A DNA stretch of 44,248 bases from positions 13,876,586 to 13,920,833 of the forward strand of contig NC_057752.1 in the NCBI RefSeq assembly GCF_004010195.1, read 5' to 3'. The notes under the pieces were generated by a model. It made no database searches. It saw nothing but the letters and a program-made list of their open reading frames with translations, and was not told the origin of the DNA. Source of the stretch: Chiloscyllium plagiosum (Eukaryota). The position numbers and the translations under genes were made by a program. Positions 1 through 43,073 of this stretch are shown here, in pieces; the stretch's first letter is position 1; every line of letters begins with the position of its first letter.

Positions 1-582
1 AGGTGCTGCATTTTGGGAAAGCAAATCTTAGCAGGACTTATACACTTAATGGTAAGGTCCTGGGGAGTGTTGCTGAACAAAGAGACCCTTGGAGTGCAGG
101 TTCATAGCTCCTTGAACGTGGTGTCGCAGGTAGGATAGTGAAGGTGTTTGGTATGCTTTCCTTTATTGGTCAGAATATTGAGTACAGGAGTTGGGAGGTC
201 ATTTTGCGGCTGTACAGGATATTGGTTAGGCCACTATTGGAATATTGCGTGCAATTCTTGTCTCCCTCCTATCTGAAGGATGTTGTGAAACCTGAAAGGG
301 TTCAGAAAAGATTTACAAGGATGTTGCCGGGGTTGGAGGATTTGAGCTGCAGGGAGAGGCTGAACAGGCAGGGGCTTTTTTTCCCTAGCGCGTCGGAGGC
401 TGAGGGGTGACCTTTTATAGAGGTATACAGAATTGAGGGGCATGGATAGGGTAAATAGGCAAAGTCTTTTCCCTGGGGTGGGGGAGTCCAGAACTAGAGG
501 GCATAGGTTTAGGGTGAGAGGGGAAAGATATAAGAGACCTAAGGGGCAACGCTTTCACGCAGAGGGTGGTACATGTATGGAA
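1..582 (+). mobile_element. CR1 (HER1-like) LINE ORF2 3' fragment
   Basis: Peptide LYRILVRPLLEYCVQFLSPSYLKDVVKPERVQKRFTRMLPGL, typical of the CR1 ORF2 C-terminal region; frameshifted. Confidence 0.88.
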
Positions 583-770
583 TAAACCAGTTGGACTTTA
601 ACCTGGAGTTGTGTGATGTCTGACTTTGTCCACCCACCCAGTCTAACACCGGCACCTCCATACCACTGTGTCCTTCCAGTCCTGAAGATGAGTCCCTCTG
701 GACTCCATGTTAACTCCCCAGATGCTGCCAGACCCACTGAGTTTCTTCAGCACTTTATGCTTTTGTTTGC
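580..770 (+). mobile_element. Two adjacent degenerate PLE terminal fragments
   Basis: 580-660 matches the tail of the 8185-8308 element. 676-770 has CTGAAGA-T-GAGTCC(CTCT)GGACTC, a hammerhead stem II with GAAA lost, followed by a GATGCTGCCAGACC tail like 13195 and 40861. Confidence 0.55.
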
Positions 771-1990
771 CCTGAAATCTCAACTTCCATTTTTGTTTTG
801 CCATATGAGACAGTCCTACCACTGAATGGGAATTTCACTCTGCAGGTTTTCACACCACCGTGTGAATCTGTTTATCATGTTTTATGTGGAACAGACCAAG
901 CTGCTCATGAGTGCTTGCCTGTTCAAAGTTTTACTCCATTTGTCAGTAAAGAGCAGAAGTTTGTCCCCACCTGCTCCCTGGCACAGCAATTTCAAAGTTA
1001 ATTGCAAATATTAAGACATCAAAGATCTTTGCTCTTTTATTTTTGGACTAGTGTCATGGCATCTTTATTACAGGAGGTAGAATAACTCTCTCTTCCAAAA
1101 GTGCGATTGTTGAGAATTGTTTTGGCTTCCAAGTCCAAGGGAGACCATAAGACATAGGAGCAGAAGTAGCCCATTTGAGTTTGTTCTGCCATTCAATGAG
1201 ATCGTGGCTGATCTGATAATCCTCCCCTCTGCTCTCCCTGTACCCCTTGGTCCCCTTTGTGATGATAAGACGTAGGGGTTTTTGTTTGCAGTTACTCTCT
1301 GTGTAGGTGTACAAATACAAATCTGTGCGACTGAAATTTGTGTTTTGCTTGAATTAATGTTGGCACACTCCTCTTTCTTCTTAATCACCTGTGTCCTCTG
1401 AATACAATTTGTAAACTAACAGCCCTGCTTACATTTTAGTGAGAAGTTTGTCTGAGACTTGCTACAGTCTGTGGAACTTTCCAGAGGACCGTGGCGTCTG
1501 GGCTGTTGAGTGATTTATTTTTGAGGCTGATTCTTAGATGTTTGACAGGCAAGGGAGTGAAATTAGAGTTTAGTGGATAGAAAGGCAAGTTGACACTGCA
1601 ATTGGATCAGCCAAGAGTGTTATCAAATGGCAAAGTAGGATTGACGCCTAATTTTCTTCCCAATTTTTATTGCTGTATGGCATTCTATTACTTTTTTTGT
1701 TTAAGAAAAGTGTTTTGTGGTCTATAGTCTGCAGATCTCTTGCAGCAAATAATTTTCTAATTGTCACAGCTTGTGATCTTGAGTCTGATTTCCATTTCCC
1801 TTGGGTTTTGGGACCTAGATCTTGTGCTCCCATAATTCCCCCTCGAGGAGGGTGATGTATGCTGGCTTGTGCATCTCCCCTTCTCCCTCACGGTTTTTGT
1901 TTGTTGTTCGAGAAAGCTGTTGCAGATTGGAAGGATTTTGGTGTGGGCAGAGGTGTGGATTGTACTTATTTTTCCCCAGCACCCATGTGG

Positions 1991-2011
1991 TGTGTGTGTG
2001 TGTGTGTGTGT
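1991..2011. repeat. (TG)n microsatellite
   Basis: Direct inspection. Confidence 0.9.
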
Positions 2012-2855
2012 ACTGCGTCCTATACCTGCGTGCGCAAAGAATGACAAGTGTGTAAATCTCTCTTTATATTTTACCATCAGGAAGAAAAGAAACACCCGAG
2101 TGGCCAGTGACCAGCAGTGCCCTTTGAGAAGGGCACTGCTGCATGGTCAAAAAAAGTGAAGGGGAGGGCAAGGATTAAATCAAAATAGAGTTGGAGGGGG
2201 AGTGTGGATTGTATGTGCATGTAGGAGAGTAAGGCTCAATTGAACTAAGCAAATTGGAACACCATCTGTGTATTCCTTCAATTGGCATTGTTTTATCTGT
2301 GCGATACACTAAAGGGCAGGCGATAGATGGATGTCTGATATTTGGCTCACTGCTGTTTTCTGCCATTTTCAATGCATTTACAAAAGCCACACATTACAGA
2401 TATGTGGCTCCTAACTATACAGACACCGTGCAGTGTCAAAGAAAAATCGCTTTAAACACACCATTTAAGCTGACTGAGCAAATAAACAGTGATGTTCCCT
2501 TGAAAGGATAATGTTGGCAAAAAGGCAATGAGTTGACCGTGAGGTGCTCCCTCAGTACTGCACTGGAATCGCTGCAAGGGGAAGGCTTTCTTTTACTTTA
2601 AACTGTGTTGATCCCACATGTTGGAAAAATTGAAACTTTTTCTCCCACGTTGTGGACTTGGTTAGGAATTGCTGCGCTTGCAAAGCTGCAAGAATCCCTG
2701 CAGTTTGTAAATGCCTCCAATTTCAAGCTAGCTTTCCACTTTTGCTTCCCATTTTGGGAAGACAAGGTAGATCTAGGTTTTAATCCTGATAGCTGATGAA
2801 ATTTGAATTCAATTTTTTTTAAAAATCTGGAATTAAGAATCTAATGATCAATGAT

Positions 2856-3556
2856 TGTGTTGCTGAACAAAGAGACCTTGGAGTGCAGGTTCATAGCTCC
2901 TTGTCAGTGGAGTCGCAGGTAGATAGGATAGTGAAGAAGGCATTTGGTATGCTTTCCATTATTGGTCGGAGTATTGAGTACAGGAGTTGGGAGGTCATGT
3001 TGTTGCTGTACACGACATTGGTTAGGACACTGTTGGAATATTGCGTGCAATTCTGGTCTCCTTCCTATCGGAAAGATGTTATGAAACTTGAAAGGGTTCA
3101 GAAAGATTTGCAAGGGTGTTGCCAGGGTTGGAGGATTTGAGCTATAGGAAGAGTTGAATAGGCTGGGGCTGGAGCATCAGAGGCTGAGGGTTGACCTTTT
3201 TAGAGGTTTATAAAATCATAGGATAAATAGACAAGGTCTTTTCCCTGGGGTGGGAGAGTCCAGAACTAGAGGGCATAGGTTTAGGGTGAGAGGGGAAAGA
3301 TATAAAAGAGACCTAAGGGGCAACTTTCTCATGCAGAGGGCAGTGTGTGTGTATGTATGAGCTGCCAGAGGAAGTGGTGGAGGCTGGTACAATTACAGCA
3401 TTTAAGAGGCATTTGGATGGGTATATGAGTAGGAAGGGTTTGGAGGGATATGGGCTGGGTGCTGGCAGGTGGGACTAGATTGGGTTGGGATATCTGGTCA
3501 GCATAGACGAGTTGGACCGAAGGGTCTGTTTCCACGCTGTACATCTCTCTGACTCA
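2856..3556 (+). mobile_element. CR1 (HER1-like) LINE, 5'-truncated with 3' end, nested in a tRNA-SINE
   Basis: QRDLGVQVHSSL...LEYCVQFWSPSYRKD; 3' tail GGACCGAAGGGTCTGTTTCCACGCTGTA; SINE sequence on both sides (2790-2855 and 3557-3770). Confidence 0.88.
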
Positions 3557-6439
3557 ATAACCTTGAATCCATTGTCAATTGTTGGGAAGAATCCATCTGG
3601 ATTCACTAGTGTCCTTCAGGGAAGGAAATTGTCATCCTTACCTAGTCAGGCATACATATAACTCCCAGACCCACAGCAATCTGGTTGACTCCTAACCACC
3701 CTCTGCCCATCCCTCATTGCTCAATAAATGCTAGCCCAGCCAGTGATGCCCTCATCCTGTGAATGACATTTCAAAAACTATTTGCTATCCCCTGATTGAA
3801 CACAGCAACATATAACATCCGAGAGCGGTAGCATTCATGGCAAGACCCAGTGCGTTCAGAAGGAGAACAAGTTGGGCCAGAAATGAACCCAATCTGATCG
3901 AACGCTTCCAGTGCCATTTGATGGACATTGTGGCAATGGTGAAGGTCGTTCAGCCCGTCGAGCCTACTACGCCATTGAATGTGATCGGGACCGTGACCTC
4001 AAATCCACATTCCCACCTTTTTTCACCCCCTTCCCCACGTAACAAGAATTAATCTATCTTGACCTTTTTCTTTAAAGCAGAGAATGCTTTTGTTTGGTCT
4101 GGTTTTATTCCCTCTTTTTAATGCACTGGCTCTTGTAGGAATTATCTGTGTTGGTACTGTGGTTTTTAAATGTTTGCCAGACCCACATCCATTTGCGGGT
4201 ACCACCAACAGCATTACGTCCTAATCTGGGGGCACTTGAACAGTGAGGAAAAATACTACTGGCTACTTTTCTTCACCCCCCCCCCCCCCACCCCACCCCC
4301 CCCAATCAAATGGGGTGTTATCGCAAACTCTGTGCCCCAACCTTCTTGAGATCCCATTTACCTATTGTCCTGCTATGGCTGACCTTCATTAGTTGCTGAA
4401 CTCAGTCTGGTTTTGAAAGTGTCTGTGTCTCTCAATCAAATTTAGTTAAATGCTCTTTGGGTTGTTTGGTGATTATGAAAGGTGTTACACTTACACACGT
4501 TAGCTGACCTGTGCCCTGAGGAGATGTTTGCCTTTTTTAGTCAGAAGACGTTTGACCTTTGGCCTGGAGGTGGGAAGGGTGGTTCAGTTAGGCCATGTCT
4601 CTTTTTGAGGCCTGATTCATTTGGGTTTGTTGAAGGTCTCTGGTTTTGATAAGCTACTTGCTGACCTTTTGCATTTCCTATCTTGACCATTTGTGTAATG
4701 GTCTTGTTTTTTGTCATGGGGATCTTGGGCAGGAGCATAATCCTGACCTGTGACTGGAGAGCCTGACCACCTTCTTTTGAGAAGTTTATTGGCTGTGTCG
4801 CGCCATTCCATTTAAAACCCTGTAGCCAAGCTGTTTGCTGCTTGGCTCACGCCAGAGCTCTGTACAGGGTATAGTCTGCCTGGTGTCAGCATTCCTGTAC
4901 AGTGAGTGTTTAACTTGTGCGGGGGGGGGAAGAGAGAGAAATCAAACCATTTACCCTTCTCAGGGGTAGTGGGGCTTGTATTTGGAGTCTGTAAAGAAAA
5001 CTGTTGGCTGCTTAAAAGATCTTGTCTGCGTTGCATGGATGCGGCTGCTTTTTAGATTCTTTTAATTTTGCTGTTGTGGCTTAATGGTGGGTGTTGAATA
5101 ACTTTGGTCTTCTGCACTCTGAAAGGCAAAGTGAATAGGGTCAGTATCCATTCCCAATCCAAATCTCTGCTGTTTTGCAGAGTAAACATCAATGACTGGG
5201 CCCAGCATTTATTGCCTATCCCTAGTTGCCCCTTGAGAAGGTGGTGAGCTGCCTTCTTGCAGTCAATGTGCTGTAGGTTAAATGCCCTTAGGGAAGGGAA
5301 TTCTAGGATTTTGGCCCAGCCAAGACTGAAGGAACGGTGACATATTTCCAAGTCTGGATGATGAGGAGCTCTGAGGGGAACTTGCAGGGGTTGGTGTTCC
5401 TGTGCATCTGTTGCTCCTGGTCCTTGTTGAGGGGGTTTGGAAGGTGCTGTTGGAAGAACCTTGAGTTGCCAAAAGAGGTCATGTTTTTTTTAAATTGTGT
5501 GTCTTCAGTCAAGGCGATGTAGAAAGTAAACTGGTTTCCACTTGTGGAATGGGGCCCAAAGTTGGGGCCACCCATATATAGTGGCTAGTAATGAATCTGT
5601 CAGGGAATTTGGAAGATAGTGGTCCTCTCTCACGTGACAGATTGTGTCTCTGTCCATCCCCTACCCCTGCGTGTGCTCTGGCTTCAAGTCCCACACCAGG
5701 ACTTTATAGTCAAGCAAAGTATTATTCCCAACGTGACCAAACATGTTGAGGGTCAACAGGCAAATCCTTCCAACACGTGCCAATAGCAGACAGTGAGAGT
5801 GTGAGATGTTCTTAGCTTGATCAAACATAAGGCTTCTGGTTTCAGATTAACACCATGTACTTTTGTGTTGTGGGAGGTTAGGGGTCAAACTGCGGAAAAC
5901 AAGCCGCATTCTTCATCCTGTCTTGTCTTGGATGGGGAAAGTAGTCCGAACCAATTGAGGATAAAATTCTTTACCTGCAAATGTTCAGACTTTGCACATG
6001 GCTACTACGGGGAAGTGACTGAGGTAAATAGTTATGGGTCTATTTAAGAGGGAGCTGGATGAACATGAGGCAGAAAGAAACTAGGCCAACATTAGTGAGG
6101 TAAGGATGGATGGTATGACATAGTCGGGCGAAATTGTCTGTCCTGCTGCTGTGAATACTTACTGATTCCCTGGGCCATAGGGAGGGAGTTTCTCCATCTC
6201 TCTCTTTATTACCTGCATACTGGGCACAAAGGTATCCAGGGATTAATGACTTTTGGAGGAATCCAGGATGAAGTTAATCATGGCATTAATAGGTTTGTTT
6301 TTGTTTTTAATTTCATGGTCGTAAAAGAAAAAAATCAGCAAGAAAATTTTAGATTACTTTTTTTTTTACTTTCCCCCAGTTGGCTGTGTCTCCAAAATGG
6401 AGGCAACTGAGGATAGGATAGCGATGGGAATGAGATGTC

Positions 6440-7215
6440 ATGGACATTTGAAAATAGTAGGCCATTCAGTCTTTCGGGCCTGCTCCCCTATTAATCACGG
6501 CTGATCAGTCAATTCAGTCTCCTGCTCCCACTTTCTCCCCCTATCTCTTTTAGCCCTAAGAACTAATCTGACTCCTTGAAAACATTTGTGTTTTAGCCTT
6601 GATGGGCCAAATGTCTGCTTGCCGCACTGTAGAAACTCTCTTCTCTGCGTGAAGATGTTTTTTTTTTCCCTCATCTCAGTCCTAAATGGTTTACCCTGTT
6701 TAGATTGTGACCCCCTGGTTCTGGACTCCCCCCACCATTGGGAACATCCTTCCTGAGTTTACCCTGTCTGGTCCTGTTAGAATTTTATAGGTAGGAGTGG
6801 GGGAATCTCAAACTGCACTGCATATAGTCTTAACCTGTACAACTGCAGCAAGACAGCCCTGCTCCTGTACTCGAACCCTCTCGCTATGAAGGCCCAACAT
6901 CCCATTTATCTCCTTCGCCTCCTGCAGGCTTACTTACAGTAACTGGTGTACAAGGGCACCCAGATCTCACTGGACCTCCCACTTTCCCAACCTATCGCCA
7001 TTTGGAGAATAATCCACCTTCACATTTCTGCTCCCAAAGTGGATAACCTCACTTATCCATATTACTACATCTGCCAGGTACGTACCCCTCACTCACTCAG
7101 TCCAAATCACAATGGAGCATCTCTACACCCTCCCTCAGCCTCTGCTGTTAAGTCTTTTAGAATGGATGCTAGCGTTTTCCCCACCAACCATGTCAGGCTC
7201 ACCAGTCTTTTGATT
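6440..7215 (-). mobile_element. Degenerate CR1 LINE fragments
   Basis: Reverse-complement similarity to the other CR1 copies (GTTCTGGACTCCCC, CTGCTCCTGTACTC, CCAAAGTGGATAACCTCAC). Confidence 0.65.
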
Positions 7216-8184
7216 CACTCACTCACTCGCTCGTCTTTTGAAAGTAGCAGAGTTATATTAGAGGGCCTCCAACCCATGAGGTGAAATCTCCTCCAGGGAG
7301 TTGGCAAGCTTTGGCTGTTGGCATAGAAATAGGCGGCAGTTTGCCCGTCATGCCCTCACTGTCAAGATCGAATATGGTTTGGAGCACTGGCGTTACCCGT
7401 TGTGGGGGTGAAGAGGTTGAAGGGAGAGACAGAGGAGCCTTGATGTGTGTGCTGTCGCTTCTCGACGAACTCTGAATCAATCTCTACCCCGGCCCTGCAG
7501 CAGGATGTCAGCTGTTTCTCTCTTGACTGCATGGAGCCAACACGGTTGTCATGGCGACTGCTTACTAGGCTGTTCTCAGCTGTCGCTGTAATCGTCCTTT
7601 GGCACCCAACCCTTTTCAGGAGGAACTCGACAGTGCCTTCAGCAACTCTTTGCCTTCTCTAGCCTGCTCTGCGAGGAAATATTTCTGAAGGGGATTTAGC
7701 TTTTGTTTTGGTCAAGATGAGGTAAAGTAAGGCTTCATCTGATCACTGTGTGTGTGTGTGGCTTTTATTGTGCTGTGTCAGTGTCTGTTTTCACGTGTTG
7801 CTGCAGATAATCTCAAACCTGTTGTGCATTGACGCGGAGGAAGCCGTTCAGCCCCTCAAACCAATTCCCACCATTCAATTAGATCTGGACTGGCCTGTAT
7901 TGTAGGTACCTACCAGTTTGTGGGGCAGGAGAGAAGCATTGAAGTGTTTCATTCAAGATGGGCAATGGGTGTACACCTGTTTTTGCTACAGATCTTTTAC
8001 GTTTCTCTATTTCTTTCAGGTGGGGCATCGCTGTCCATTTGCCCATTTTTAATACTGTGATTTCCCCCTACTGCCCATCCTTAATTGCCCCTTGTACGAA
8101 GTGTCTTGTTCCCCCATTTCAGGGGGGCAATTCAGACTCTATCATGTTGCTGTGGCTTTGCAGTCCTATGTGGTCTAAACCAGA

Positions 8185-8308
8185 ATTCTGTAAGAATTGT
8201 CTTACAATCGTATTCTCCACAGCCACCTGATGAAGGAGCAGCGCTCCGAAAGCTAGTGTTTCCAAATAAACCTGTTGGACTATAACCTGGTGTTGTGATT
8301 TTTAACTT
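8185..8308 (+). mobile_element. Penelope-like terminal (pLTR) fragment inserted in a SINE
   Basis: Hammerhead followed by TTCCAAATAAACCTGTTGGACTATAACCTGG, related to 580-660 and 30600-30650; flanked by TAAACCAGA/TAGACCAGA; the host SINE resumes at 8309. Confidence 0.7.
8224..8258 (+). ncRNA. Minimal type-I hammerhead ribozyme motif (PLE-associated), intact core
   Basis: CAC-CUGAUGA-A-GGAGC(AGC)GCUCC-GAAA-GC-UA-GUG: stem I CAC/GUG, 5-bp stem II, palindromic AGCU stem III, CUA cleavage triplet. Confidence 0.8.
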
Positions 8309-8637
8309 TAGACCAGATAAGAGCGACAGATTTCCTTCCCTATTACTAAATGTTGCCCAAAGGACGTTCGTCAGCCCACGTAGGTTTTTCCAATGTGACT
8401 TTATTTTCACCAGTTTTTAGATTTATTAACCGAATTTAAATTCCACCAGCTGTCATGATAGGAGTTGATCCACTGTCCTCTGAGCATTTGCCTAAGCCTC
8501 TGGGTAACTAATGCAGTGACACTACCTCTCCGCCACCCACTGAAAACCAGGGGAAAATCTGGAAGTACCTCTGACTTCTTTTTAACCTTCATATAATTGA
8601 GACTGAGTTTGGCAAATAAAAGAGGAGCCTCTGATTA

Positions 8638-8941
8638 TTAGATTACATTACAGTGTGGAAACAGTCCCTTCGGCCCAACAAGTCCACACTGACCCGCCAA
8701 AGCGCAACCCACCCATATCCCTACGTTTACCCTTTACCTAACACTACGGGCAATTGAGCATGGCCAATTCACCTGACCTGCACATCTTTGGACTGTGGGA
8801 GGAAACCGGAGCACCCGGAGGAAACCCCCACAGACACAGGGAGAATGTGCAAACTCCACACAGTCGCCTGAGGCAGGAATTGAACCCGGGTCTCTGGCAC
8901 TGTGAGGCAGCAGTGCTAACCACTGTGCCACCGTGCTGCCC
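8638..8941 (-). mobile_element. Full-length HE1-like V-SINE
   Basis: tRNA-like head (GGCACAGTGGTTAGCAC; GGTTCAATTCC), V-domain TGTGTGGAGTTTGCACATTCTCCC...CCTCCCACAGTCCAAAGA, CR1-like tail, TAATC end repeat. Confidence 0.9.
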
Positions 8942-9079
8942 GTTATCTGGCATTTGATTGTGCATTACTCGGCAAGATCGCAATGTCCCAATGCTTGGCT
9001 AAATTGTTATCCGGCATTCGAATGAAATTCTTCCCACCTGTGTCCTTCAGATAATCGAGGTTCCTCTGTAAACCAAAGA

Positions 9080-10120
9080 TGAGGCAAGTCTTGGTGCATC
9101 GGTACAGGGCCCTGGTGAGACTACGTTTAGAGTACGGGCTGTAGTTTTGGTCTCCTTACTCGGGAAAGGTTCCACTTGCACTGGAGGCAAGTTACAGCAG
9201 GTCTTCTGGGGATGAAGGGGTTTATCTTGAGGAAAGGTTGAGTAGATTGAACTCCAGTGAGTGTGGGGACAGAGGAATAAGAGGGTGATCTTATGGAAAC
9301 ATCCAAGTTTTGACTAACTGCTGAGGAGATGTTCCAGAACTAGGGGATCACAGTATTAAAAATGATGGGAGACCCCTTCCATACTGAGAGGAGGGTTGGA
9401 GAGTATAGCTGCTCAATATCGAATGGTGTTACTGTCACTGAATTCTCCCACTATCAACATCCTGGGGGATACTGTTGATCAGAAACTCATCTTGCCACAA
9501 GCACAGTGGGCGGCACGGTGGCACAGTGGTTAGCATTGCTGCCTCACAGCGCCGGAGACCCGGGTTCAATTCCCGCCTCAGGCGACTGACTGTGTGGAGT
9601 TTGCACGTTCTCCCCATGTCTGCGTGGGTTCCCTCCGGGTGCTCCGGTTTCCTCCCACAGTCCAAAGATGTGCAGGTCAGGTGAATTGGCCATGCTAAAT
9701 TGCCTGTAGTGTTAGGTAAGGGGTAAATGTAGGGGTATGGGTGGGTTGCGCTTCGGAGGGACTTGTTGGGCCGAAGGGCCTGTTTCCACACTGTAATGTA
9801 ATCTAATCACAGCAGCCATACAAAGCAGGTCAGATGTTAGGAAACCTGCTCACCTCCTGACTTCCCAAAGCCTGTCCCACCATCTACAAGGTGTTAAGAG
9901 TGTGATGGAATACTCCCCACTTGCCTGGATGGGGGCAGCTCCAATAACACAAGAAGATTGACACCATCCACGACCAAGCAGCCCCCTTGATTGGCACCAC
10001 ATCCACTCCCTCCCCCCACTGACACTCACTCAGTAGCAGCAAAATGTACTGTCCACAAGATGCACTACCGAAATTCACCAAAGATCTTCAGACAGCACCT
10101 TCCAAACCCATAACCACTTT
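9080..10120 (+). mobile_element. Old CR1/L2-clade LINE fragments interrupted by a V-SINE
   Basis: CCCTGGTGAGACTACGTTTAGAGTAC...TTTTGGTCTCCTTAC (LVRxxLEY..FWSPY) and TACAAG...GTGATGGAATACTCCCCACTTGCCTGGATG (MEYSPLAWM). Confidence 0.6.
9508..9808 (+). mobile_element. Full-length HE1-like V-SINE
   Basis: Same structure as, and near-identical to, the 8638-8941 copy. Confidence 0.9.
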
Positions 10121-13100
10121 CTTCTAGGCTAGAAGTAGGGTGAAGGCCACAACCACATCAGCCATGATCTTAACGAATGGCGGAGTGGGCTCGAGAGGCT
10201 GACTAGCTGCCACCTGTTCCTATTTTTCAATGGCCTTACAAGTTCTTGATTCAGGCTGGCACTGAAACTAGACAGCCCTGGTATTAGGAGTGAATTCAGG
10301 CTGATTTTTAGATAAAACACTTTGGTACATTTTATTTTATTTCAAATGAAGTTGCCCTGAGACACCTTTATTTTGGCAGCGCTCTGTTCTGTGCCTAGAT
10401 GCAGCTCGCTTGTATGGTGATGTTTTTTTTTTCTGCAGCTGAGCTCCAGGGTTTAGAGTCTGACTCAGGCAAGGAAGAAAGCTGGAACACTATCTCTGAC
10501 ACCTTTTTAAAAAATTTTCTTCTGAGTTAGACGACAAACGTCTGAGAGATTACGACTCTTTTTTTTTTTAACCCAATCATGCCTGTCATGTAATGGAACA
10601 GGACCAACCAGTGAGCCCCTTCTATGCCATGTCCTGTGCCCTGTTGGCCTGAGTTGCTGTGAAAATGTTGGGGGATATCTAAATCTATCTGCTGACACCT
10701 CGCACTCCCCTGTAGATTTCTTGGGAGGGGGGTGGTATTCTGAAGGAGAGAGTAAGTGATTCCTGGAAGGGGGCTTAAAGCATTAGTGAGTCAGATTTGT
10801 GAATAATGAGTTTCTGGGCAAGATGGTGCCCAGCCTTGGGCAGCTGCCCTTGCATCGCCCCACCCCCAGGATTGCACAAACAAGAAGGGAATGCTTCCTG
10901 TCAAATTCCTGGAATAATCATCATCCCCTGGTGATTTCGACATTAACTTGAGATGAGCTTCGGCACTGGCTTTGCTCTGGGGTCTGGAGTCCTGGGCTGG
11001 GTGGGGTGTTTTTTTTTTTGGAAAGTTGCTATCCTTCCTTTTTCCTTCTGAGGTGTCAGCCAGGAAGTGCTCAGTGTGAGCTGGTTTTCATGTCTGTTTT
11101 GAAGCGAATAATGGGACATTGCTCTGGAATGAGTCCTCTTGGATCTTCAGCGCTCTGTCTCTCCCCACCCTCCGGTAGCCGGGAAATCTACCACTGAGTA
11201 AGAGGAACGGGAGTTCTGTTCCTTCCCCTTATTCTGACCCCTCCAAACCTTTAGTGCTTGCAATGAATTAAAAATTAGCATGCTCTGTGTCTTCACAACT
11301 GGGATTGTCAAGAATCGATTGATATTTCACAAAGAAATTGGAGGGGGCAGGATTTATGAATGTTGGAAATGCACCCCAAGAGATGAACAATTCGGATGCA
11401 AGCCCTTGTCTCAAACTTTAGTCAGCTTTGATACCACTGCTCTGTTTGCCTCTCCTGTTCAGGGTGCTGTGTATTTTCAGCAGTGACATGCCTTGTGTTC
11501 TCTTAATCCCACCGCACTCATCCACCATCTACACCACCAGCCCTCCCACCCAGTTTTCTGATCTACATTGGCTCCACACCACCCATCTCCCACCATGCTC
11601 ACCCAGTCTTCAAACCCCTTTTCTAATTTTGCCCCTTCCCATTTCTGTTGCTATCTAACCCTCTTGCCTTTTCTCCATCACCTCTCCTGCCTTTTCGACC
11701 ATTTTTACTGGTGGCTGTCCCTTTCGCTCTCCAGGAACGATGCCATGGATTTTCCTCTGTTAACATCTCCTGCTTTTTTACGTCTACCTTTTACCTCACT
11801 GGCCAAGTTTAGAGGTGCCATTTTACTCCCTTTCCTTTTGTGGCTGTTTCTGTATGATTTACATTTTCTGTGCAGTGCCTTGGAACATTTTTCTTAGGAA
11901 CACTTCTGTGATTCCCTTCTGTCGTCCCGGTTTGATGCGTGTACCAACCAAAGCAGTTGTGATCCATTTTTTTTTTTTTTTGCGGCTATTCGGCCCACTG
12001 GGTCTACATCGACCCACCGAAGAGCATTCCACCCAGACCCATTTCCTGTTGTTCGGAGCGGCTGCTCTATGCTGTGTTCTGACTTGCTTACAAATTTCCG
12101 AACAGCAATGGGGACTTATTCGTGACCCGCGGACTGCCTTTTTCTTTCTTTTTTTTCTCTCCAATTTCCCCCACCTCCACCCGAATTGCAGTCGCGAAAG
12201 CAGACTATCCAGGTGGTTGTGGGGAGCTTGCCGTGCACCAATGAACAGCAGTGACTTACATCTCAAAAGGCACCTCCATTGGGGGTGTCCAGTGGTCATC
12301 TGGGACCGGCATCGGTTGTCACGGCGATTCTGGTTTCCAGCAGGAGTCTGCAGGGCCGACTTTGGAAAGATCTTGCATTCTTCGAGTGACCACTTGGATT
12401 CACACAGTGGGGTGGGTGGGGCGGGGGTGCAGCGCAGTCTAACTCGAATTGGCTGCGATTGGAAGCTGCTGCTGGGAGGCGCCAGTGGATGTTTTTGTTT
12501 TTGGGAACGGTTGCTTTTGTGGGCGCGCTGACGTGAGGTCTGACCCTTTTTTTTTGCCCTAAAAGGTCGCCTTTTTGTTTTTGGAGGAGTTTGGGTCTTA
12601 TGACCAGGTGAGCCGCCATAGGCTCTGGATTGAAAAGGGATGGTCCCTTCCTGCCGCGATGGCGGAATTGTTTTAACACTTCAAACCGGCGTTGTGGCAG
12701 CATTAAGTCCTTGTGTGATTTTTAAGGGCGCAGGGCCTGTCGTGTCTGTGCAGGTCTGACACTGGTGATCACTGAGTCGGTGGATGCCAAACCAATGTTA
12801 GAAATTGGATTGGGTGTTGATGCTGGGGGGGGGGGGTGGAATGAAGCGGAAGATGCCAGACCAATTGGTTTTCTTTTCTTTTTAAATGGGGGGAAGGGGA
12901 TCGACGGTTACTGGGGAAAAGGCAGGAAAGTGGAGTTGAGGGTGATTGGATCAGCCATGACCATCACTGATTTAATATTCATTGTATCTTGTTACAAAAT
13001 ACATGTGCGACGTGTATTGGGACTCTTGACGCCATCTTAAAACACACACATGAACCAAAACACAAGATAAAGGCAGAACATAACGAAATAGTGTCCAACT

Positions 13101-13144
13101 TTACAGTCCTTCCTGTAAAATGCTGGGCTTGGTGGCCAGGCACT

Positions 13145-13180
13145 AGACCTGATGAAAGGCTGATGCCTGAAACGCTGTTT
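13145..13180 (+). ncRNA. Degenerate hammerhead motif with one core substitution
   Basis: AGAC-CUGAUGA-A-AGGC(UGAU)GCCU-GAAA-CG-CU-GUUU; the required U of the NUH triplet is C. Confidence 0.6.
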
Positions 13181-13272
13181 TTCCTGCTCCCTCGGATGCT
13201 GCCTGACCTGTGCTTTTCCAGCAACCTCCTCTGGACACTGATCTCCAGCATCTGCAGACCTCACTTTCTCCT
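13145..13272 (+). mobile_element. PLE terminal fragment, same family as 40731-40905
   Basis: Hammerhead-like core followed by CCTGCTCC..GGATGCTGCCTGACCTG..CTTTTCCAGCA..GATCTCCAGCATCTGCAG..CTCACTTTCTCC. Confidence 0.65.
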
Positions 13273-14899
13273 ACCTCGACCCTTTCACCACGTATTGGAT
13301 GCCTCGATGGGCTGAATGGCATGTCATTACTGAGGCCAGGGGTCTTGGTGCTGTGCTTCCCTATTTTTTTTTATTTATATACACACACACACACACCCCT
13401 TCCTAAACCCATTCATCCCAGACACTGGGAGGCGCTGAGCAGGGCAACCCAATACATTTGCTAAAGCACTGAGGGAGTGCAGACTGATTGTACATTGGGG
13501 TGGGCGCAGCCTTGTTACAAGTTCCTTTCAAATGATGGGATTTGTTTTATTTTTGTTTTTGACATTTGGATTGTTGCCAGCAGCTAGCTCTCGCCATAAC
13601 CTTGGTGATGGCCTCACAATGTCTTGTTCCCATTAATCATTGAAACCCTACAGTGCAGAAACAGGCCATTTGGCCCAACAAGCCCACACTGAATCAACAA
13701 AATCAAAAAGTTACTCTTCAGAGAGTAAGTCCGAGAGCACCTCATGCAAAGGGTGGGTGACCAGAGCATTCACTTGACTACATCTGCTTGGGCACTTGCT
13801 GACCTACTTTGGTGCCCACTCCAGTGAGGCTTCAGCTTTTTTTTGAATAAAAAGTTGAAGCCTTGTTTTCAGTTCACTCTTCGATCTCTATCTGGGTTTT
13901 GTTCTAACCTGTCTAGTATCCCCGATTTTGTGATTTGCTGGCTGTGCTTTCAGCTTGCCTGGGCCCCATGCTCTGGAATTCCCCCCCCCTGCCTGAGGTG
14001 TGGTCTCCTGATGGTTTGAGAGGGATTTTCCACTCCCCAGTGGATACTCTCACAGGAAGGCTGTCCCGACAATCACTCTGCAAAGTGAATCGATGCTCGC
14101 TGTTGTTATATTGTGTACATTCCAAAGTTTATAGCCTTTTTCCCACCTTTGCATTTAGTCTCCTAATGCCCTCTTTCTATTTACCTTTTTTCCTCCTGTT
14201 TCCAAACTGCCCACGACATTTCTGATTTCTCCCTCTCTGTCTCCTCCAAACGTGTTCAGTTGATCCAGCTAACTGAGGTGTCTCTGCACTTTTGAGGCCT
14301 AGTCAACAATTGATCTCAATGTTGCAGTGAGCCCCTTCTTTCTCTCTCCCCACTCTTGCCCTAACTCAATCAGTCAAGCGGGCAGGGGGCACAAATTTAA
14401 TATGGAAAGGAATTGAAACTGAATTGCTCCTTCCATCTCCTGGCCCATTATTCAGTCCAACTCGCTGTTTCTTCACAAGAATAGAAGAAACAGGCAGGAG
14501 TAGGCTGAAACTTGCTTGGCCACCCTGTAATTGCCGGGGATTGGAAGCTAATTTCCAGTTTACTGTTACTGATAATAGTGCTAAGCAAAATAAGACCTCT
14601 GAGACATTTATAATTTTTTTTTTAAAAAGTACTTCTGTTCACCAAGTAAACCAAAGATGTTGGATATAAGAGAGAGAGGAAAAAACTGTTTCAAGCAGTG
14701 GAAGAAATGAACGACCTTTTCTCCATTCACCTTGAAGATAGGGCACTGTATTGGCAGCATTAAAGAAACCATTCAGCCTATCTGCTCCTCCATTTGATAC
14801 AATTGTGGTTGATCTTTCACCCCCACCCCTTTTTTTAAATGTGTTCAACAGTGGAGGAATTTCCCCCCCCCCCCCCCCACATGTCTCCTGATCTCGGCA

Positions 14900-16110
14900 C
14901 TAAACCGAGATATATCCTTATATCCAACATCCTGAGACCTCTTTCCTCCTTCCCATCCCTGTGTTCTAGATAACCCCAGTCAAAGGGCAGCAACCTTTTC
15001 AGTACAGACCTGGTCCCAACCTTTCAGAATCGAGTCCTGTCTCAATGAGATCCCTGCTCGTTCTGCTCCACTCCAGAGAATATCAACCCAATTTACTCAG
15101 TCTCTCCTTATGGGATCGATTGAGTGAACTTTTGCTGTGCCACCTCCAATTTGAATGTAATCTTGAAATATGAAGACTAAATTTGCACACAACATTCTAG
15201 ATATGATACCACCAAAGCCCTATATGATTGTAAGCAAGCCTTCCTTTATTTCTATGTGCTCATCCCCTTCGCCTGCCTATGTGGTCATGTGATACGAGGA
15301 AGCTAGTGTGACCCCGTTATGTCATGTTTGTGCCCCAGATCGAAGCAAGGTGATTCAATGTAGCTGCAGGAGCAGGATGGAATTTCTGCCTGTCTCTGGA
15401 AAACTAACTCCGCCTATCCAGTCTCTCTCTTCACACTGCATCTCTCTAGCCCAGGCAACATCCTGGTGAATCTCCTCTGCATCCTCTCCAGTGCAATCCC
15501 ATCCGTCCTGTAGTGCAGTGACCAGAACTGCACACAGTCCTCCAGCTCTGCTCTAACTAATGTTATCTGCAGCCCTATCCTAACCTCCCAGCTCTTGCGT
15601 TCCATGTGTTGACTAATAGAGGCAAGTGCGCCATATGCCTCCTGGAAAAAGAGAGAGAGAGACTGTGTGTGTGTGTGTGTGTACATACAATCGAAGGGCA
15701 AAAAGAGACGAAGCAGGTTTACTGGTAATTACAAAATATGGATTGACAGTTGGAGATGCGAGCATGAAATATTGGATAAAATGATCATGAGCTTTAGTTT
15801 AAATGTCAGTTACTGGGCTCGACAGCACAGAAAAGTCCTTTCGGCCCATCGAGTCTACGCTAGTCCAAATCAACCCTCTAGCTATTCTAATTCCATTATC
15901 CGGTACTTGGTCCATAGCCTTGTATGTTTGGACATCGCAAGTGACCCATCGAAGTCCTCCTTCAATGTGCTGAGGGTTTCTGCCTCTCCCACCCTGACCA
16001 GGCAGGGAGTTCCAGATTCCTCACCACCCTCTGGGGGAGAAAGGGGTTTCCTCGCGTCCCCTCTTAAACTTCCTGCCCCTTCCCTTAATTCTATGCTGTG
16101 GTCGTGCGAT
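14900..16110 (-). mobile_element. Cluster of CR1 LINE fragments
   Basis: ORF 15414..15701(-) reads LVRAELEDCVQFWSLHYRTDGIALERMQRRFTRMLPGL; CR1 3'-end-like sequence near 15820-16100. Confidence 0.7.
15650..15682. repeat. Compound (GA)n(TG)n microsatellite
   Basis: Direct inspection. Confidence 0.85.
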
Positions 16111-16489
16111 ATAGTCATGTGGACTTTGTGAATAAGTGGTGATAGGATTGAGTAAATGTGACTTTTTGGAAACAGTCTGTTGAAATAGGCAATACCATTT
16201 TGAATGTGTACGTGAATCCCATGTGTGAATTCAGGTTTAAACACACAAACCTGAGCTTTGTGTGTCAGTGGATATCAAGGGTCAACTTGCCCTTTCACCT
16301 CCTTAGACAGCTTATCTACTTGCCTGTATTTAGAATTGCCAGCTATAATCTGTGGATTGTAATTGGGAGGGAAATGTTTACAGATGCAAAATTGGCTTAG
16401 CCGTAGAAGACCGAGGGTCGAGGGGTGTTTTTCTGACTGGAGATCTGGGACCAGTGGTGCTCTGCAATGATTAATGCTGGAACCTTTTT

Positions 16490-16710
16490 TGTTTATTGTT
16501 GTGGTTCTGTTCACCGAGCTGGAAATTTGTGTTGCAAACGTTTCGTCCCCTGTTTAGGTGACATCCTCAGTGCTTGGGAGCCTCCTGTGAAGCGCTTCTG
16601 TGGTGTTTCCTCCGGCAACAAAAAATTTTTTTGCAACAAAAATTTCCAGCTCGGCGAACAGAACCACAACAACGAGCACCCGAGCTACAAATCTTCTCAC
16701 AAACCTTGAA
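16490..16710. mobile_element. PLE fragment with inverted terminal duplication, inserted in CR1
   Basis: Inverted arms at about 16496-16538 and 16630-16672; hammerhead on the minus strand; GAACCTTT on both flanks (16480, 16708); CR1 sequence on either side. Confidence 0.7.
16534..16573 (-). ncRNA. Minimal type-I hammerhead ribozyme motif (PLE-associated), intact core
   Basis: Minus strand GCA-CUGAGGA-U-GUCACCU(AAAC)AGGGGAC-GAAA-CG-UU-UGC: stem I GCA/UGC, stem II with one A-G mismatch, palindromic ACGU, GUU triplet. Confidence 0.78.
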
Positions 16711-18177
16711 CCTTTGTATATATGTAGGAGGTCTGATTAGTAAGTTTGCAGATGACGTGAAAAATTGATGGAGTTATGGGTGGTGAGGAAGGTTGTCAAA
16801 GGATATAGATCAGTTGGAAAGTTGGGCAGGGAAATGGCAGGTGGAGTTTAATCCTGACAAGGGTGAGGTGATGCATTTTGGGAGGTCAAATCCAAGGGGA
16901 AAGTATACAGTAAAGGGCAGGACCCTTAGGAGCATTGATATCCGGAGGGATCTTGGGGTACAAGCCCACAGCTCCCTGAAAGGGGCAGCACACGTGGGTA
17001 AGGTGGTAAAGAGGGCAATACAGCATGTTTACCTTCATCAGGCAGGGCACTGAGTATACAAGGTGGCAGGTCACATTACAGCTGTATAAAACATTACTGA
17101 GGCCACATTTGGAGCATTGTGTGCAGCCCTGATAACTTTATCAGGGTCATGGATAGGGTGGGCGACTGGAGTCTTTTTTTTTCCCAGGGTGGAAATGTCA
17201 AATACTAGAGGGAGTAGGTTTATGGTTTGGGGCGGGGGGTGAAGTGAAATGAGATGTGCAAGGAAAGCCTTTTACCCAGACCGTAGTAGGTGCCTGGAAC
17301 ACACTGCTTGGGGGGAGGTGGTAAAACCCGATACAATAGCAGCATCGAACAGGCATTTACACAGACACGTGAACAGGTAGAGAATAGAGGGATATGGACC
17401 GTGTGCAGGCAGATGGGATTGGCTTAGAATGGCATCATGGTCAGCACAGACATGGGCCGAAGGGCCTGTTCCTGTGCTGTACTGTTCTGTGTTTTTAGTG
17501 AGGTGGGAAACAGAGGATTTATCATTGTAAGGCCCAGGCTGATTGAATTTATCTTGTCTGCACGATGAATGGAGTTTGACTTTGGGCCATCTTTTGTTTA
17601 ACCCTGTGGGTGTGATTGCTGTGGTATTAGGTCCCGTACTCCAATCTGTCTTGTGTCTCCGCGCTAAAGCGAAGCCTCGCTGCATTGCAATCTTGTGTGC
17701 TCTGTGCATGCGCAACTTTCAGCTTGCGCCATTTTACCCTGAGCGTGGGGCGGCCCCGGTGTCGATGTCTGGGGAGCTCTGTCTGTAACTGGTGCGTTCC
17801 TGGACTGGTATTGAGGACTCTGGAAGTTGGCTGAAATCAGGAAGGGTGCAGGGTGGCCGGTGAGGGGTTGGGGATACAGGAAACGTTTTGATTTTGACTT
17901 TGCTTTGTTTTGCTGTAAGAGGAACCATTTGAGGTTTTTTTTTGTGGGATCTGGGTGGCTGGCTTTTTTTTTTAAACCCTCCCCACTCCAATGAGTCCCA
18001 CAAATGTGCTGCATTGTGATGGCGCCCAATTGTATTGACTGACATGATAATAGCTATTATCCTAAAGTTGGCTTCTCTGCCCTGGATGGGCCTTGAGGCC
18101 ACTGCAGGTGGGATCAGAGTCCATTTGATTTCTTTTTCTGTGAGAGTCTAAAAGGCTTCTTTTTTTCTTCTTTCAAG

Positions 18178-34506
<16,329 letters not shown>

Positions 34507-39043: not shown

Positions 39044-39049
39044 AATAAA
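39044..39049 (+). terminator. Candidate polyadenylation signal
   Basis: AATAAA with upstream TGTA motifs and downstream TTTTTCATTTGTGTTGGATTTT; repeats resume about 450 nt later. Confidence 0.5.
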
Positions 39050-40374
39050 GATAAGGTTTTTCATTTGTGTTGGATTTTAATTTGCTGAAATGATTGGCCT
39101 CTTTCAGAGGTTATTCAGACAAGAGCAAGAATTTGGCTTTTTCCGTTGACTTTTCCTTATTTTTGCAAATTTAACAAAGAAAAGGTCCTTGAATCGCGAT
39201 GTAAAATCAATTTCTGTAGCAGCAAGTAACTGCAAGGGGAAGAAATCACAGCTGGGAGGCAGTTACCCTCGAATAGCCTCACTGTAGGATACATTGGGGA
39301 TTGTGTGTGTAAGAAGGACGCTCCCAAATTTTCACGTGAGTTTTTTGACAGGACGTATTAAGGTAACTTGGAAGACGGATTTGTACAGTGCATCAGGGAT
39401 TGAGGTCAGATTAATAAGAGATCTCGTAGTTAAGGATCCTGTTTGTGGGGGGTGGGCAACAAATGGTCAAAGTCCAAATTCAATTTGAAGATGAGCAACT
39501 CTGCTCTCAAACTAGTATCTTTACATGGGATGTGGGCATCGCTGTCCAAGCCAGTGCATATTGCCCATCCCTAATTGCCCCTTGAGCTGAGTTTGTTTTG
39601 AAAGGATTTTTCTTTTTTAATTCAGGAGTAGGCCATTTGGCCCCTCTGCCATCTGTTTTTATGATAGCTGATCATCCAACTCAGTCCCCTGTGCCCACTT
39701 TCTCGCCACATCCTCGCATCCCTTTAGTCCCAAGAGTTCGAAGCATTCAACGTTTTTGGCTGCTTGAGTCAGCCATATTGGCCGTGGGTCTGGAATCCCC
39801 TGTGGACCAGATTAAAAATGGCAGATTTTCATGCGAGGTGATGTTTGGTGAACTAGATGACAAATGAGGTTTTTCATAACAGTCCTGCTCACCATTATGG
39901 AGAGTTTACATTACCTTCCACATTTAGTGAAGTTAAACTTGTTCTGTTTCCATAATGAGACTTTGAACTTGTACCTTCCACGTGAACCTCCAGGTCTAGT
40001 GGATGATTAGATTCTCCCCCTTTTTTTTTCCTAAGGAAGGAATGTTTCTCAACAGCAGCTTGGTATTAATTATTTTCTTTCGCTGGGAACCAGTGGCCAA
40101 CAATACCTTTGCCTGTCTCTGAAGTTGTTTTGACGTCAAATGTGAGACAATGGCCCTTGTAATTTTCCAGCCGAGCTCTGTGGAAATAATCCTTTATTAA
40201 CAAGCTAGTGCATGCCATCCAATCCAATCTCTGCAGGCAAGCTTGAATACTCCCACTCCCTGCAGGAATGTGAGGAAAGAGGACAAAGGTGAACACGTTT
40301 CAAATATCAACTACAGCTTCCATTTGTAAAGAAACCCAACAACCCCAGCCTACAATTTGGGTTCAATACAGGCA

Positions 40375-41070
40375 TACAGCTGTACAGTGCGGAAACACTG
40401 TTCGGTCTAGCCTGTCCATGCCAACCAGATATCCCAATCTAGTCTAGTCCCACCTGCCAGCACTTAGCCCATATCCCTCTAAACCCTTCCTATTCATATA
40501 CCCATACAGATGCCTTTTAAATGCTGTAATTGTACCAGCCTCCACCACTTCCTCTGGCAGCTCATTCCATACACGCACCACCCTCTGTGTGAAAAAAGTT
40601 GCCCCTTAGGTCCCTTTTATATCTTTCCCCTCTCACCCTAAACCTATGTCCTCTAGTTCTGGACTCCCTCTCTTTCTCTTCTTCCCCCCCCCAAACCCAG
40701 GGAAAAGACCTTGGCTATTTACCCAATCTGGAGAAAGTGAGGCCTGGAGATCAGAACTGAAAAATGTGTTGCTGGAAAAGCGCAGCATGTCAGGCAGCAT
40801 CCAAGGAGCAGGAGCCCGGAAGAAGGGTTTATGCCCGAAACTTCGATTCTCCTGCTCCTTGGATGCTGCCTGACTTGCTGTGCTTTTCCAGCAACACATG
40901 TTTCAGCTATTTACCCAATCTGCGCCCCTCATGATTTTATAAACCTCTATAAGGTTTATAAACCCTCCAGGGAAAACAGCCCAGCCTATTCAGCCTCTCC
41001 CTGTAGCTCAAATCTTCCAACCCTGGCAACATCCTTGCAAATCTTTTCTGAACCCTCTCAAGTTTCACAA
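40375..41070 (-). mobile_element. CR1 LINE 3' fragment, host of the hairpin insert
   Basis: Reverse complement of the 3090-3556 copy. Confidence 0.85.
40731..40905. mobile_element. Hairpin-shaped PLE-derived insert with 17-bp TSD, nested in CR1
   Basis: Inverted arms 40764-40814 and 40849-40899 (49/51 complementary); mutated hammerhead core in the loop; GCTATTTACCCAATCTG at 40714-40730 and 40906-40922. Confidence 0.8.
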
Positions 41071-43073
41071 TATTGTCGTGTTTTTTTATTCAAGGCTGGT
41101 GGTTGCTGTCAGAGGAAAATACTATTGATGCTGGAAATCTGAAATCGAAACAGAAAATACTGGAAATCCCCAAAATCCATCTTGATCACTAATGTCCTTT
41201 TTTGGGAAGGAAATCTGCTGTCCTTACCTGGTCTGGGCTGTATGTGACTGCAAGCCCACGGTAATGTAGGTAACTCGATCACTGCCCTCTGAAATGGTCC
41301 AGCATTCTGTTCCATTCAATGGTTTTTTTTTTATTATAAAATTTCCTAGCATTTACTGCTATTAGGGAGGGAATTTCAGGATTTTCACCCAGTGCTGCTG
41401 CAGGAACGGCAATTTTACTTCCAAGTCAGGATGGTGAATGATTTGGAGGGGAACGTGCAGGGGCTGGTGTATCTGCTACCCATCAGGAAGGGAAGTCCAG
41501 AGCTTCAGACCCCAGCAATTCACGGCAGAGCCAGAAGTGTAGGAACACGGTTCCAGGAGAGGAGTTGTATGGGATTGGAGGGGCTAACTCAGGTAGGGAG
41601 GGGATGTCGGGGCTGGAGGGGGTGACCGAGATGGGGAGGGGGTCCAGGGGCCCGGAGGGCTTGGGGGGGGGGAAAAAAAGCAGCAAATCTTAAAACTGGC
41701 TCTGAAACAGGCTGTGTTTCATTGTACGTTGAGGTGAACAGAACAGGACCACAGCCGATAGCAACCTGTTTTGTGTTTGTCTAAAACTATCGCCTGCGTA
41801 CTAACCCGGGTTTTATTGGGGGCAGGGGGTGGAAATAGTCAAATCTCGAGGTTCAAAAGCTGAATGGATGAGGAATCCATTTTAAGCCTTGGACGGTTTG
41901 CTGGGTCCTTTCGAGGTCTAGGCCTGAGATAGAAGGCCTCCCATTTCCTGCATGTGTGGAGTCTGCTGCACTCTGGCATGGCGAAGAGCATTGGTCTCAG
42001 TAAAAGCAAGGGCAGAGAAAGATGGTTCAATGGACAACACTTGAACCCGGCTTGTGGAACCCGCCAGCATTGAGACCTGGCGTGGTGGTGGTGCTTTCTA
42101 TAGCTTTGCACGCTCTGTAGATCTGTGTCGGGCGAGACACTTTGGAAGGTGATTGGTTCGTGTCGCCAAGAAAGAGAGAGATGTGTGGGAACCAGAGACC
42201 ATAACAAATAAACTGTTGTTGCCTGAGCGTGACTATCTCATGATGCACCAAGTTGCTGAGGCTGTTTGTACTGAGCTCAACTCTAGTTGCTGCGGCGTTC
42301 CCAACCTGCACATTTCTGTCCCAAAACAATGGAGACATACATATCAAATCATATACCTGGAAAACCAAACGGGGGTCTGGCCAACTCCTAATTAATTTCT
42401 TCGAGTTCCAACAGATCCAGAGTTGAGAATTGCTTACAGGTGAACTTAGCAAAAAGGAAAATGTCTTGTGGAGAAACAGGGGGCCTGTGTGTGGTTCTGT
42501 TTTGATTTTTCAAGATAAACTCTATCCTCTCAGTAAGCGAATGTGGGCACATGCTGACGGAGAGTTCCCTACCTTTTGTAGTTGTTGTCAGCTGCTAGAC
42601 ACTCCTCCAACCATGACAGCCATGGACTTTCAGAGAGAGCTTGCATTTCTGTGGCGCCTTTCGTAATCTCGGGGCCCCTGTCACTTTCCTGGCAGCCAAT
42701 AAAGTGCATCTATACCTTTCATGTAATGGCGTGGGGACAGGAGGAAGTGAAAGGGAATTTCAGGACAGAATTCCTTCAGTTGGGACCCAGGCAGCTGAAG
42801 TCACAGCTACGAGGGTGGTAGTAGGATTTTAAAAGCGGGGATGTTCAAGAAACCAGGATTGAGGGTCTGCAGGTGCCTTGGAGAGGCATGGGGCTGGAGG
42901 CGATCCCAGAGATGGTGGGTTGCTGCTGGTGGTGAGTGCTGTTCTATTAGGTCTCTCAGCCAGTATGCCTTTAAGAGAAATGCAGAGGCATAGATACAAC
43001 CAATAGCCAATGTCTTTTCCCCAGGGTAGGGGAAACTAGAGGGCACAGATTTAAGGTGAGCAGAGAAAGGTTA

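What the first reader, a model, noticed from the sequence alone, without database searches (positions are those of the whole stretch)
580..41170. At least four hammerhead-bearing Penelope-like families around one gene
Seen: CUGANGA-stem II-GAAA motifs or remnants at 682, 8227, 13149, 16534(-), 19530(-) and 40817, with different stem II sequences (GAGUCC/GGACUC, GGAGC/GCUCC, AGGC/GCCU, GUCACCU/AGGGGAC, GGGU/GCCC). The structure is kept while the sequence differs. Established: PLE pseudo-LTRs carry minimal type-I hammerheads with palindromic stem III, thought to act as dimers. Inference: short ribozyme-plus-tail units of 120-220 bp are the dominant PLE product here. They may be severely truncated insertions or non-autonomous, retrozyme-like elements in this shark lineage.
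Basis: partly seen in the sequence, partly recalled or inferred. Interest (0 to 1): 0.7.

Follow-up and report, generated by a model that had tools for sequence, protein, structure and literature searches.

The report
Truncated Penelope retroelement ends with hammerheads
The short ribozyme-bearing repeats around this receptor gene are real, but they are the cut-down tail ends of Penelope-like jumping genes, often pasted in as mirror-image pairs, a pattern already described in other animals.

Summary
Two of the six named sites (8227+, 16570-) are complete minimal type-I hammerheads (none in 300 shuffles); 13149 keeps core, stem II and GAAA; 682, 19550 and 40817 are decayed. They fall into five end types; AGGC/GCCU and GGGU/GCCC are one family. 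Public contigs show other 16570-family copies run on past this copy's 5' end and fold back elsewhere, so these are truncations rather than fixed-length units. No tandem hammerhead units occur, so the retrozyme test fails here. A 0.7 kb decayed frame beside 19550 looks like a PLE endonuclease end by eye, but no search confirmed it. Scattered solo minimal hammerheads of several families per genome are published (PMC4209133), and this scan noted the same thing many times elsewhere in this genome. Left open: whether some families start at a fixed point just before the ribozyme or at its cut site.

The parts
581..666 (+). Family A 3' end with tail, no hammerhead; abuts the broken end of another repeat fragment
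   Evidence: Aligns to 8265-8309 and 30607-30654; left flank 400-583 matches other repeat copies up to 583
669..790 (+). Type C unit: decayed hammerhead (core 682, 6-bp stem II, GAAA lost) plus downstream stretch; ends approximate
   Evidence: weak similarity to family B, E 0.009-0.07; no second C copy found
8185..8308 (+). Family A single arm with complete minimal type-I hammerhead (core 8227, predicted cut after 8255), short 3' end; inserted in an older repeat
   Evidence: Full motif; 9-nt duplication with 1 mismatch 8176/8309 (68 of 1000 random boxes give 9 or more); flanks match an older repeat family
13148..13272 (+). Family B single arm: core, stem II, GAAA, damaged cut-site region, long (tail) 3' end
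   Evidence: family 3' end fixed at 13272/13273 in all 4 runs laid
16490..16617 (-). Family D left arm: complete minimal hammerhead (core 16570, ATG at the start of stem II, predicted cut after 16537), short 3' end
   Evidence: other copies continue beyond 16617 with one consensus
16615..16710 (+). Family D right arm: starts at about the predicted cut site (with a local 17-nt duplication), carries a 38-nt tail
   Evidence: 41 of 43 nt identical to the left arm; tail seen in alignment; 8-11 nt duplication 16477/16705
19480..19785 (-). Type E inverted arm with decayed hammerhead (core 19550); ends approximate
   Evidence: Homologous to 20466-20598(+), E 7e-5; locus shared with organism B (table 8)
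19830..20500 (+). Decayed, frameshifted reading frame, probably the C-terminal part of a PLE protein (endonuclease end); not confirmed
   Evidence: Translation; by-eye likeness to PLE GIY-YIG alignment; searches gave no relative
20466..20660 (+). Type E forward terminal stretch, lacks the hammerhead; ends approximate
30487..30652 (.). Family A head-to-head palindrome centred on hammerhead stem II/loop II; tail on the left arm only; in an intron
   Evidence: hairpin z -8.4; 8-nt duplication 30478/30653 (weak on its own)
40730..40906 (.). Family B head-to-head palindrome: left arm with tail starts 4 nt past the cut site, right arm starts 2 nt before the mutated core (40817)
   Evidence: Arms 55 of 58 identical; 17-nt flanking match 40714/40906 (0 of 1000 random boxes); three other copies of the host repeat hold the target once; hairpin z -18.4
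18180..34506 (+). Host gene, coding exons 2 onward of a type I TGF-beta/activin receptor (ACVR1B-like name is recalled)
   Evidence: Exon translations; exon 22504-22731 matches TGF-beta receptor type I structures, E 4e-42

Best explanation
These are dead-on-arrival 3'-end insertions of several endonuclease-bearing Penelope-like retrotransposon families. The element's protein nicks host DNA (giving a target duplication), starts reverse transcription at one of two internal sites 50-130 nt downstream of the hammerhead (giving a short end and a long 'tail' end), and usually stops within about 130 nt, so the hammerhead is simply what lies next to the start site and is carried along whole, in part or not at all. 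In many events a second, inverted copy is joined head to head, with a centre that differs from event to event. The ribozymes then decay neutrally. Shown here: motifs, two 3' ends per family, variable 5' ends, inverted arms with tail on one arm, one firm target duplication. Inferred from published PLE work: the enzyme, the two start sites, the fold-back step. Not shown: the autonomous partner, any cleavage.
For: Two discrete 3' ends in each of families A, B, D, and in 3 of 3 palindromes only one arm has the tail, as described for PLEs (PMC3846280 passages; PMC8557442 passages; two RT start sites define the tail, PMC11167929). D has an ATG at the start of stem II, as the Poseidon ORF does. Target duplication at 40714/40906 confirmed by three intact host-repeat copies. 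In 3 of 3 contig runs, 84-126 records run on beyond 16617 with one consensus (agreement 0.73-0.79), whereas beyond the B 3' end the letters are random (0.33-0.34); two listed joints show other D copies with different centres (16519 to 16640; 16617 to 16685). 5' ends relative to the core range from -47 to +38 in A, B, D and further up in E. 4 of 6 hammerheads are damaged.
Against: No full-length RT plus GIY-YIG partner was found; no genome was available and ten protein searches on the candidate frame gave no true relative. Both core-bearing B copies start 1-2 nt before the core, and earlier notes of this scan report 5' ends clustered just upstream of the core (unchecked), which random truncation does not predict. 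Target duplications other than 40714/40906 are short enough to be chance on length alone. Only the best-supported rows of the joint and loose-end tables were shown.
Confidence: 0.78

Rival explanations
1. Some families (B, perhaps A) are copied from a short dedicated RNA that begins just upstream of the hammerhead, made by a pLTR promoter or a non-autonomous master copy, and mobilised in trans by a PLE protein, like a SINE.
For: 2 of 2 core-bearing B copies start 1-2 nt before the core; very high summed contig depth over B and D (about 7e5 against 3-60 in unique bins; not a copy number); pLTR sequences suffice for mobilisation in trans (PMC3846280); earlier notes report clustering.
Against: Family D continues upstream in other copies; the 8227 insert starts 42 nt upstream of its core; the third B arm starts 33 nt downstream of the core; n is tiny.
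Confidence: 0.15
2. The units are monomer offspring of non-LTR retrozymes: tandem hammerhead arrays elsewhere in the genome make circular RNAs that are reverse transcribed by PLE enzymes.
For: Non-LTR retrozymes related to PLE pLTRs are reported in the one chondrichthyan sampled, with many dispersed monomers (10.64898/2026.07.22.740005).
Against: No tandem hammerhead units among the 12 tandem rows or the self-matches; unit ends do not run cut site to cut site; head-to-head pairs with a one-sided tail are the PLE pattern, not the head-to-tail retrozyme pattern.
Confidence: 0.04
3. The palindromes are MITE-like DNA transposons that move as fixed hairpins.
For: Three inserts are 165-220 bp inverted repeats with flanking duplications.
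Against: Arms are unequal, the outer ends differ by the tail, duplications vary from about 8 to 14-17 nt, single arms also occur, and centres differ between copies.
Confidence: 0.02

Closest known systems
Minimal hammerheads (min-HHR) of metazoan PLE pseudo-LTRs (Cervera and de la Pena 2014, PMC4209133)
   Same: Core with an extra base after A9, G10.1-C11.1, variable stem II, palindrome in place of stem III, 3-bp stem I; several sequence families per genome; mostly solo motifs ascribed to truncated PLEs; some pairs on opposite strands.
   Different: No shark appears in the part of that paper's supplement that I could search (file 2; file 1 not searched). Density here (about one end per 5 kb) looks higher than its 4,000-9,000 motifs in coelacanth and Xenopus; not counted genome-wide by me.
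Insertion units of EN+ PLEs, Penelope/Poseidon type: inverted 5'-truncated pLTR plus tail (PMC3846280, PMC8557442, PMC11167929)
   Same: Head-to-head inverted copy, 30-40 nt tail at one end only, target duplication, strong 5' truncation, ATG at stem II start (family D).
   Different: Both arms are under about 130 nt, so most inserts hold no coding body; the autonomous partner was not identified; clade assignment untested.
Non-LTR retrozymes (PMC7761336 passages; 10.64898/2026.07.22.740005)
   Same: Short, non-coding, type-I hammerhead, related to PLE terminal repeats.
   Different: Defined by head-to-tail tandem units each with a complete ribozyme and by circular RNA; neither is seen here.

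Membership tests
PLE minimal hammerhead (min-HHR) | Core CUGANGA with an extra base before stem II | tested here: met
   4 of 6 sites (682, 8227, 13149, 16570); 40817 has U4G; 19550 has the core without the extra base
PLE minimal hammerhead (min-HHR) | Stem II closed by G10.1-C11.1, followed by GAAA | tested here: met
   3 of 6 have both (8227, 16570, 40817); 13149 has A-U; 682 lacks GAAA; 19550 has no 3-bp stem
PLE minimal hammerhead (min-HHR) | Palindrome in place of stem III, N-U-H triplet, stem I of 3 bp or more | tested here: met
   2 of 6 (8227, 16570); 0 of 300 shuffles
PLE minimal hammerhead (min-HHR) | Stem II covariation within a family | tested here: inconclusive
   One pair of copies (B): one A-U versus G-C change, one half of it at a CpG, in a copy damaged elsewhere
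PLE minimal hammerhead (min-HHR) | Self-cleavage as a dimer | not testable with these tools
   Needs an in vitro assay; cofolding did not give the active dimer fold and is no test
EN+ PLE insertion unit | 5' truncation with fixed 3' ends | tested here: met
   Loose ends at 16617 share a consensus; at 13272/13273 they are random; two 3' ends per family
EN+ PLE insertion unit | Inverted 5' copy, head to head, tail on one end only | tested here: met
   3 of 3 palindromes; type E shows an inverted arm but its tail could not be placed
EN+ PLE insertion unit | Target-site duplication | tested here: met
   Firm for 40714/40906; plausible but short for 8176, 16477, 30478; not found for 581, 682, type E; weak for 13149
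EN+ PLE insertion unit | Link to an RT plus GIY-YIG ORF | tested here: inconclusive
   Decayed frame 19830-20500 resembles PLE endonuclease ends by eye; no search confirmed it
Non-LTR retrozyme | Two or more consecutive head-to-tail units, each with a complete hammerhead | tested here: not met
   None in the window; rest of the genome not available
Non-LTR retrozyme | Abundant unit-length circular RNA | not testable with these tools
   Only a polyA single-cell run was laid
Non-autonomous fixed-length family (SINE-like) | Shared 5' end across copies | tested here: inconclusive
   Not met for D or among the A arms (-42, about +8 to +14, +38); 2 of 3 B arms start at -1/-2
MITE | Equal terminal inverted repeats and constant duplication length | tested here: not met
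   Unequal arms; duplications of about 8 to 14-17 nt

The most novel reading that the evidence does not exclude
The breakpoints are not random but record the RNA that was copied: core-bearing arms stop at a fixed RNA start just upstream of the ribozyme, and some partner arms stop at the ribozyme's cut site (the right arm of D begins within about 2 nt of it). If so, a very large set of genomic inserts would be a fossil record of in vivo cleavage by PLE minimal hammerheads, whose role is unknown and whose cut ends were not seen in lizard RNA-seq (PMC11167929), and at least one family would be a SINE-like non-autonomous PLE derivative.
Probability: 0.13. Interest if true: 0.58.

Novelty: new member of a known kind. 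Interest (0 to 1): 0.2.

Why it matters
As it stands, modest: it adds well-marked PLE end families to the repeat annotation of a shark-like genome (about 2.2 kb, 5% of this window, by my coordinates) and warns that their hairpins mimic microRNA precursors in Rfam scans. Its value is as material: the copies are so many that a genome-wide map of 5' ends and fold-back centres against the ribozyme could test how PLEs prime, fold back and whether the minimal hammerhead cuts in vivo.

Tried and rejected
No whole genome is held, so no genome-wide profile. Rfam: 0 hammerhead among 6 matches; the mir-1791, mir-2007, MIR528 and MIR860 hits are the palindromes. Candidate frame 19830-20500: Pfam and NCBIfam, nothing near a cut-off; phmmer over 1.84 billion proteins, 1 hit, a repetitive FIVAR protein rejected as spurious; three word-seeded searches, 0 hits from 3, 0 and 8 candidates; PDB 0; Atlas no usable hit; viral contigs 0 of 16; motif look-ups in the PMC8557442 supplement found nothing useful. 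These blanks are weak for a short, decayed, frameshifted piece. DNA pattern scans for outside copies: viral contigs 1, 0 and 0 matches, metagenomes 16 matches; all 17 loci were rejected as chance because similarity did not extend beyond the pattern region (one short 38-nt match). No RNA holder was listed as such. One polyA single-cell run, about 2 in 100 read, showed no pile-up of starts or ends (table 6); this library cannot show cut ends or circles and is no evidence either way. An empty orthologous site for B or D in organism B could not be read from the rows shown. Folding energy does not single out the hammerheads (z -0.7). The piece near 41105-41165 had no match at E<=0.5 and is left out. 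Cut-site coincidence: 1 of 4 arms that begin inside or past the ribozyme starts within 2 nt of the cut; too few to count.
Full report
Setting. No genome was held.

Observation. Of 30 CTGANGA cores, 3 are followed by a stem II and GAAA (8227+, 13149+, 16570-; 1 of 300 dinucleotide shuffles reach 3; with stems of 4 or more, 2 observed, 6 of 300) and 2 are complete minimal type-I hammerheads (8227+, 16570-; 0 of 300). They fit the published consensus point by point (PMC4209133, main text parts 1-2 of 4 and supplement file 2 part 2; sites). The other four named sites are damaged: 13149 (A-U closing pair, C at 16.1), 40817 (U4G, no 5' stem I), 682 (GAAA lost), 19550 (no stem II or I). Rfam reports no hammerhead. 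Self-comparison groups the pieces into five end types: A (581, 8227, two arms at 30525), B (13149, two arms at 40817), C (682), D (two arms at 16570), E (19550 and 20466).

Three inserts are head-to-head inverted pairs: 16490-16710, 30487-30652, 40730-40906 (arms 41 of 43 and 55 of 58 identical for D and B, looser for A). Each of families A, B, D has two discrete 3' ends, a short one and one longer by about 25-40 nt, and in 3 of 3 pairs only one arm carries the extension. That is the inverted pLTR plus 'tail' of Penelope-like insertions (PMC3846280 passages; PMC8557442 passages); in vitro the tail is the stretch between two internal RT start sites, and the Poseidon ORF begins at stem II (PMC11167929 parts 1-2 of 4). 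Family D has an ATG in that place. The B pair is flanked by a 17-nt match (0 of 1000 random boxes), and three other copies of the host repeat in the window hold that target once, with a 14-nt overlap. Duplications at 8176/8309 (9 nt, 1 mismatch), 30478/30653 (8 nt) and 16477/16705 (11 nt, 1 mismatch) abut the element ends but are reached by 68, 183 and 15 of 1000 random boxes; none was found for 581, 682 or E. The three centres differ: loop II in A; in B one arm starts 2 nt before the core and the other 4 nt past the cut; in D one arm starts 47 nt before the core and the other at about the cut, with 3 nt of microhomology and a local duplication.

Outside copies. I laid 4 of 24 listed runs on 12900-20800, which covers B13149, D and E but not A or C. 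In 3 of 3 contig runs, 84-126 records continue beyond 16617 with one consensus (agreement 0.73-0.79, median 14-17 letters): this D copy is a truncation of a longer family. Beyond 13272/13273, 275-658 records per row continue with unrelated letters (0.33-0.34 in contig runs; 0.39 and 0.58 in the RNA run): a fixed 3' end. Two joints among the 12 rows shown in table 5c (191 not shown) give other D centres. Summed depth over B and D is about 4e5-1.5e6 against 3-60 in unique bins, which indicates very abundant families but is not a copy number. The E locus is present in organism B, so it is old; depth rises over its 3' part (165-315) and falls to background further 5' (10-29), as truncation would give.

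The ORF question. Between the inverted E arm and its forward homologue (E 7e-5) lies a 0.7 kb frameshifted frame. Its end (SAIGQYL..., then EATYP..GP in another frame) resembles by eye the S-A-x-x-x-H and E-A-x-x-I..P blocks of Poseidon, Perere and Nematis endonucleases (PMC8557442 supplement part 55 of 59), and I recall similar upstream motifs from PLE proteins, but ten searches found no true relative. It stays probable, not shown.

Mechanism. Most likely (0.78): PLE endonuclease nick, internal priming at one of two sites, early stop, often an added inverted copy made at insertion; the hammerhead is a passenger near the start site and decays. Rivals: a short dedicated template for some families (0.15; 2 of 2 core-bearing B copies start at -1/-2, and unchecked notes report such clustering); retrozyme monomers (0.04; no tandem units; definition from PMC7761336 passages, and 10.64898/2026.07.22.740005 parts 1-3 of 5); MITEs (0.02).

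Known or new. Thousands of dispersed solo minimal hammerheads in several families per vertebrate genome, ascribed to truncated PLEs, were reported in 2014. Penelope elements are listed for the whale shark (PMC8455134, one passage), and retrozymes plus PLEs for one chondrichthyan (its supplementary tables, which may name these families, were not seen). Five literature searches showed no paper describing these particular shark-type families; the library lacks most subscription journals and Repbase. PMC6155905 was seen as passages; Lunse et al. 2017 only as a reference entry. This scan has 98 notes matching 'hammerhead' in this genome, 8 shown, with the same reading. Verdict: real, new members of a known kind, interest 0.2.

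Noticed in passing
window 40757-40906 and 30514-30652: The palindromes fold into long hairpins (z -18.4 and -8.4) and draw spurious microRNA matches in Rfam; the 30525 and 16570 pairs lie in introns of the receptor gene, so its pre-mRNA may hold double-stranded stretches.
   Followed up: partly
window 581-790: A family A tail end is directly followed by a type C unit in the same direction, right after a broken repeat fragment; possibly one PLE end inserted at another, order unresolved.
   Followed up: partly
window 29264-29985: About 720 bp bounded by TGT...ACA inside another repeat; looks like a solo LTR (recalled, ends printed).
   Followed up: no
window 25392-25810: Stretch starting CAGT that recalls a Tigger-type DNA transposon remnant; no matching inverted end was seen.
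   Followed up: partly
window 41105-41165: Possible inverted tail remnant of type C by eye; no match at E<=0.5.
   Followed up: partly
window 8693-9760, 26226-27560, 32803-33190, 43720-43960: A SINE-like family in at least five forward and two inverted copies, including an inverted pair 722 nt apart at 92%.
   Followed up: no
window 16615-16632: A 17-nt local duplication at the D junction shares a variant with the right arm only, so it probably arose after insertion.
   Followed up: partly
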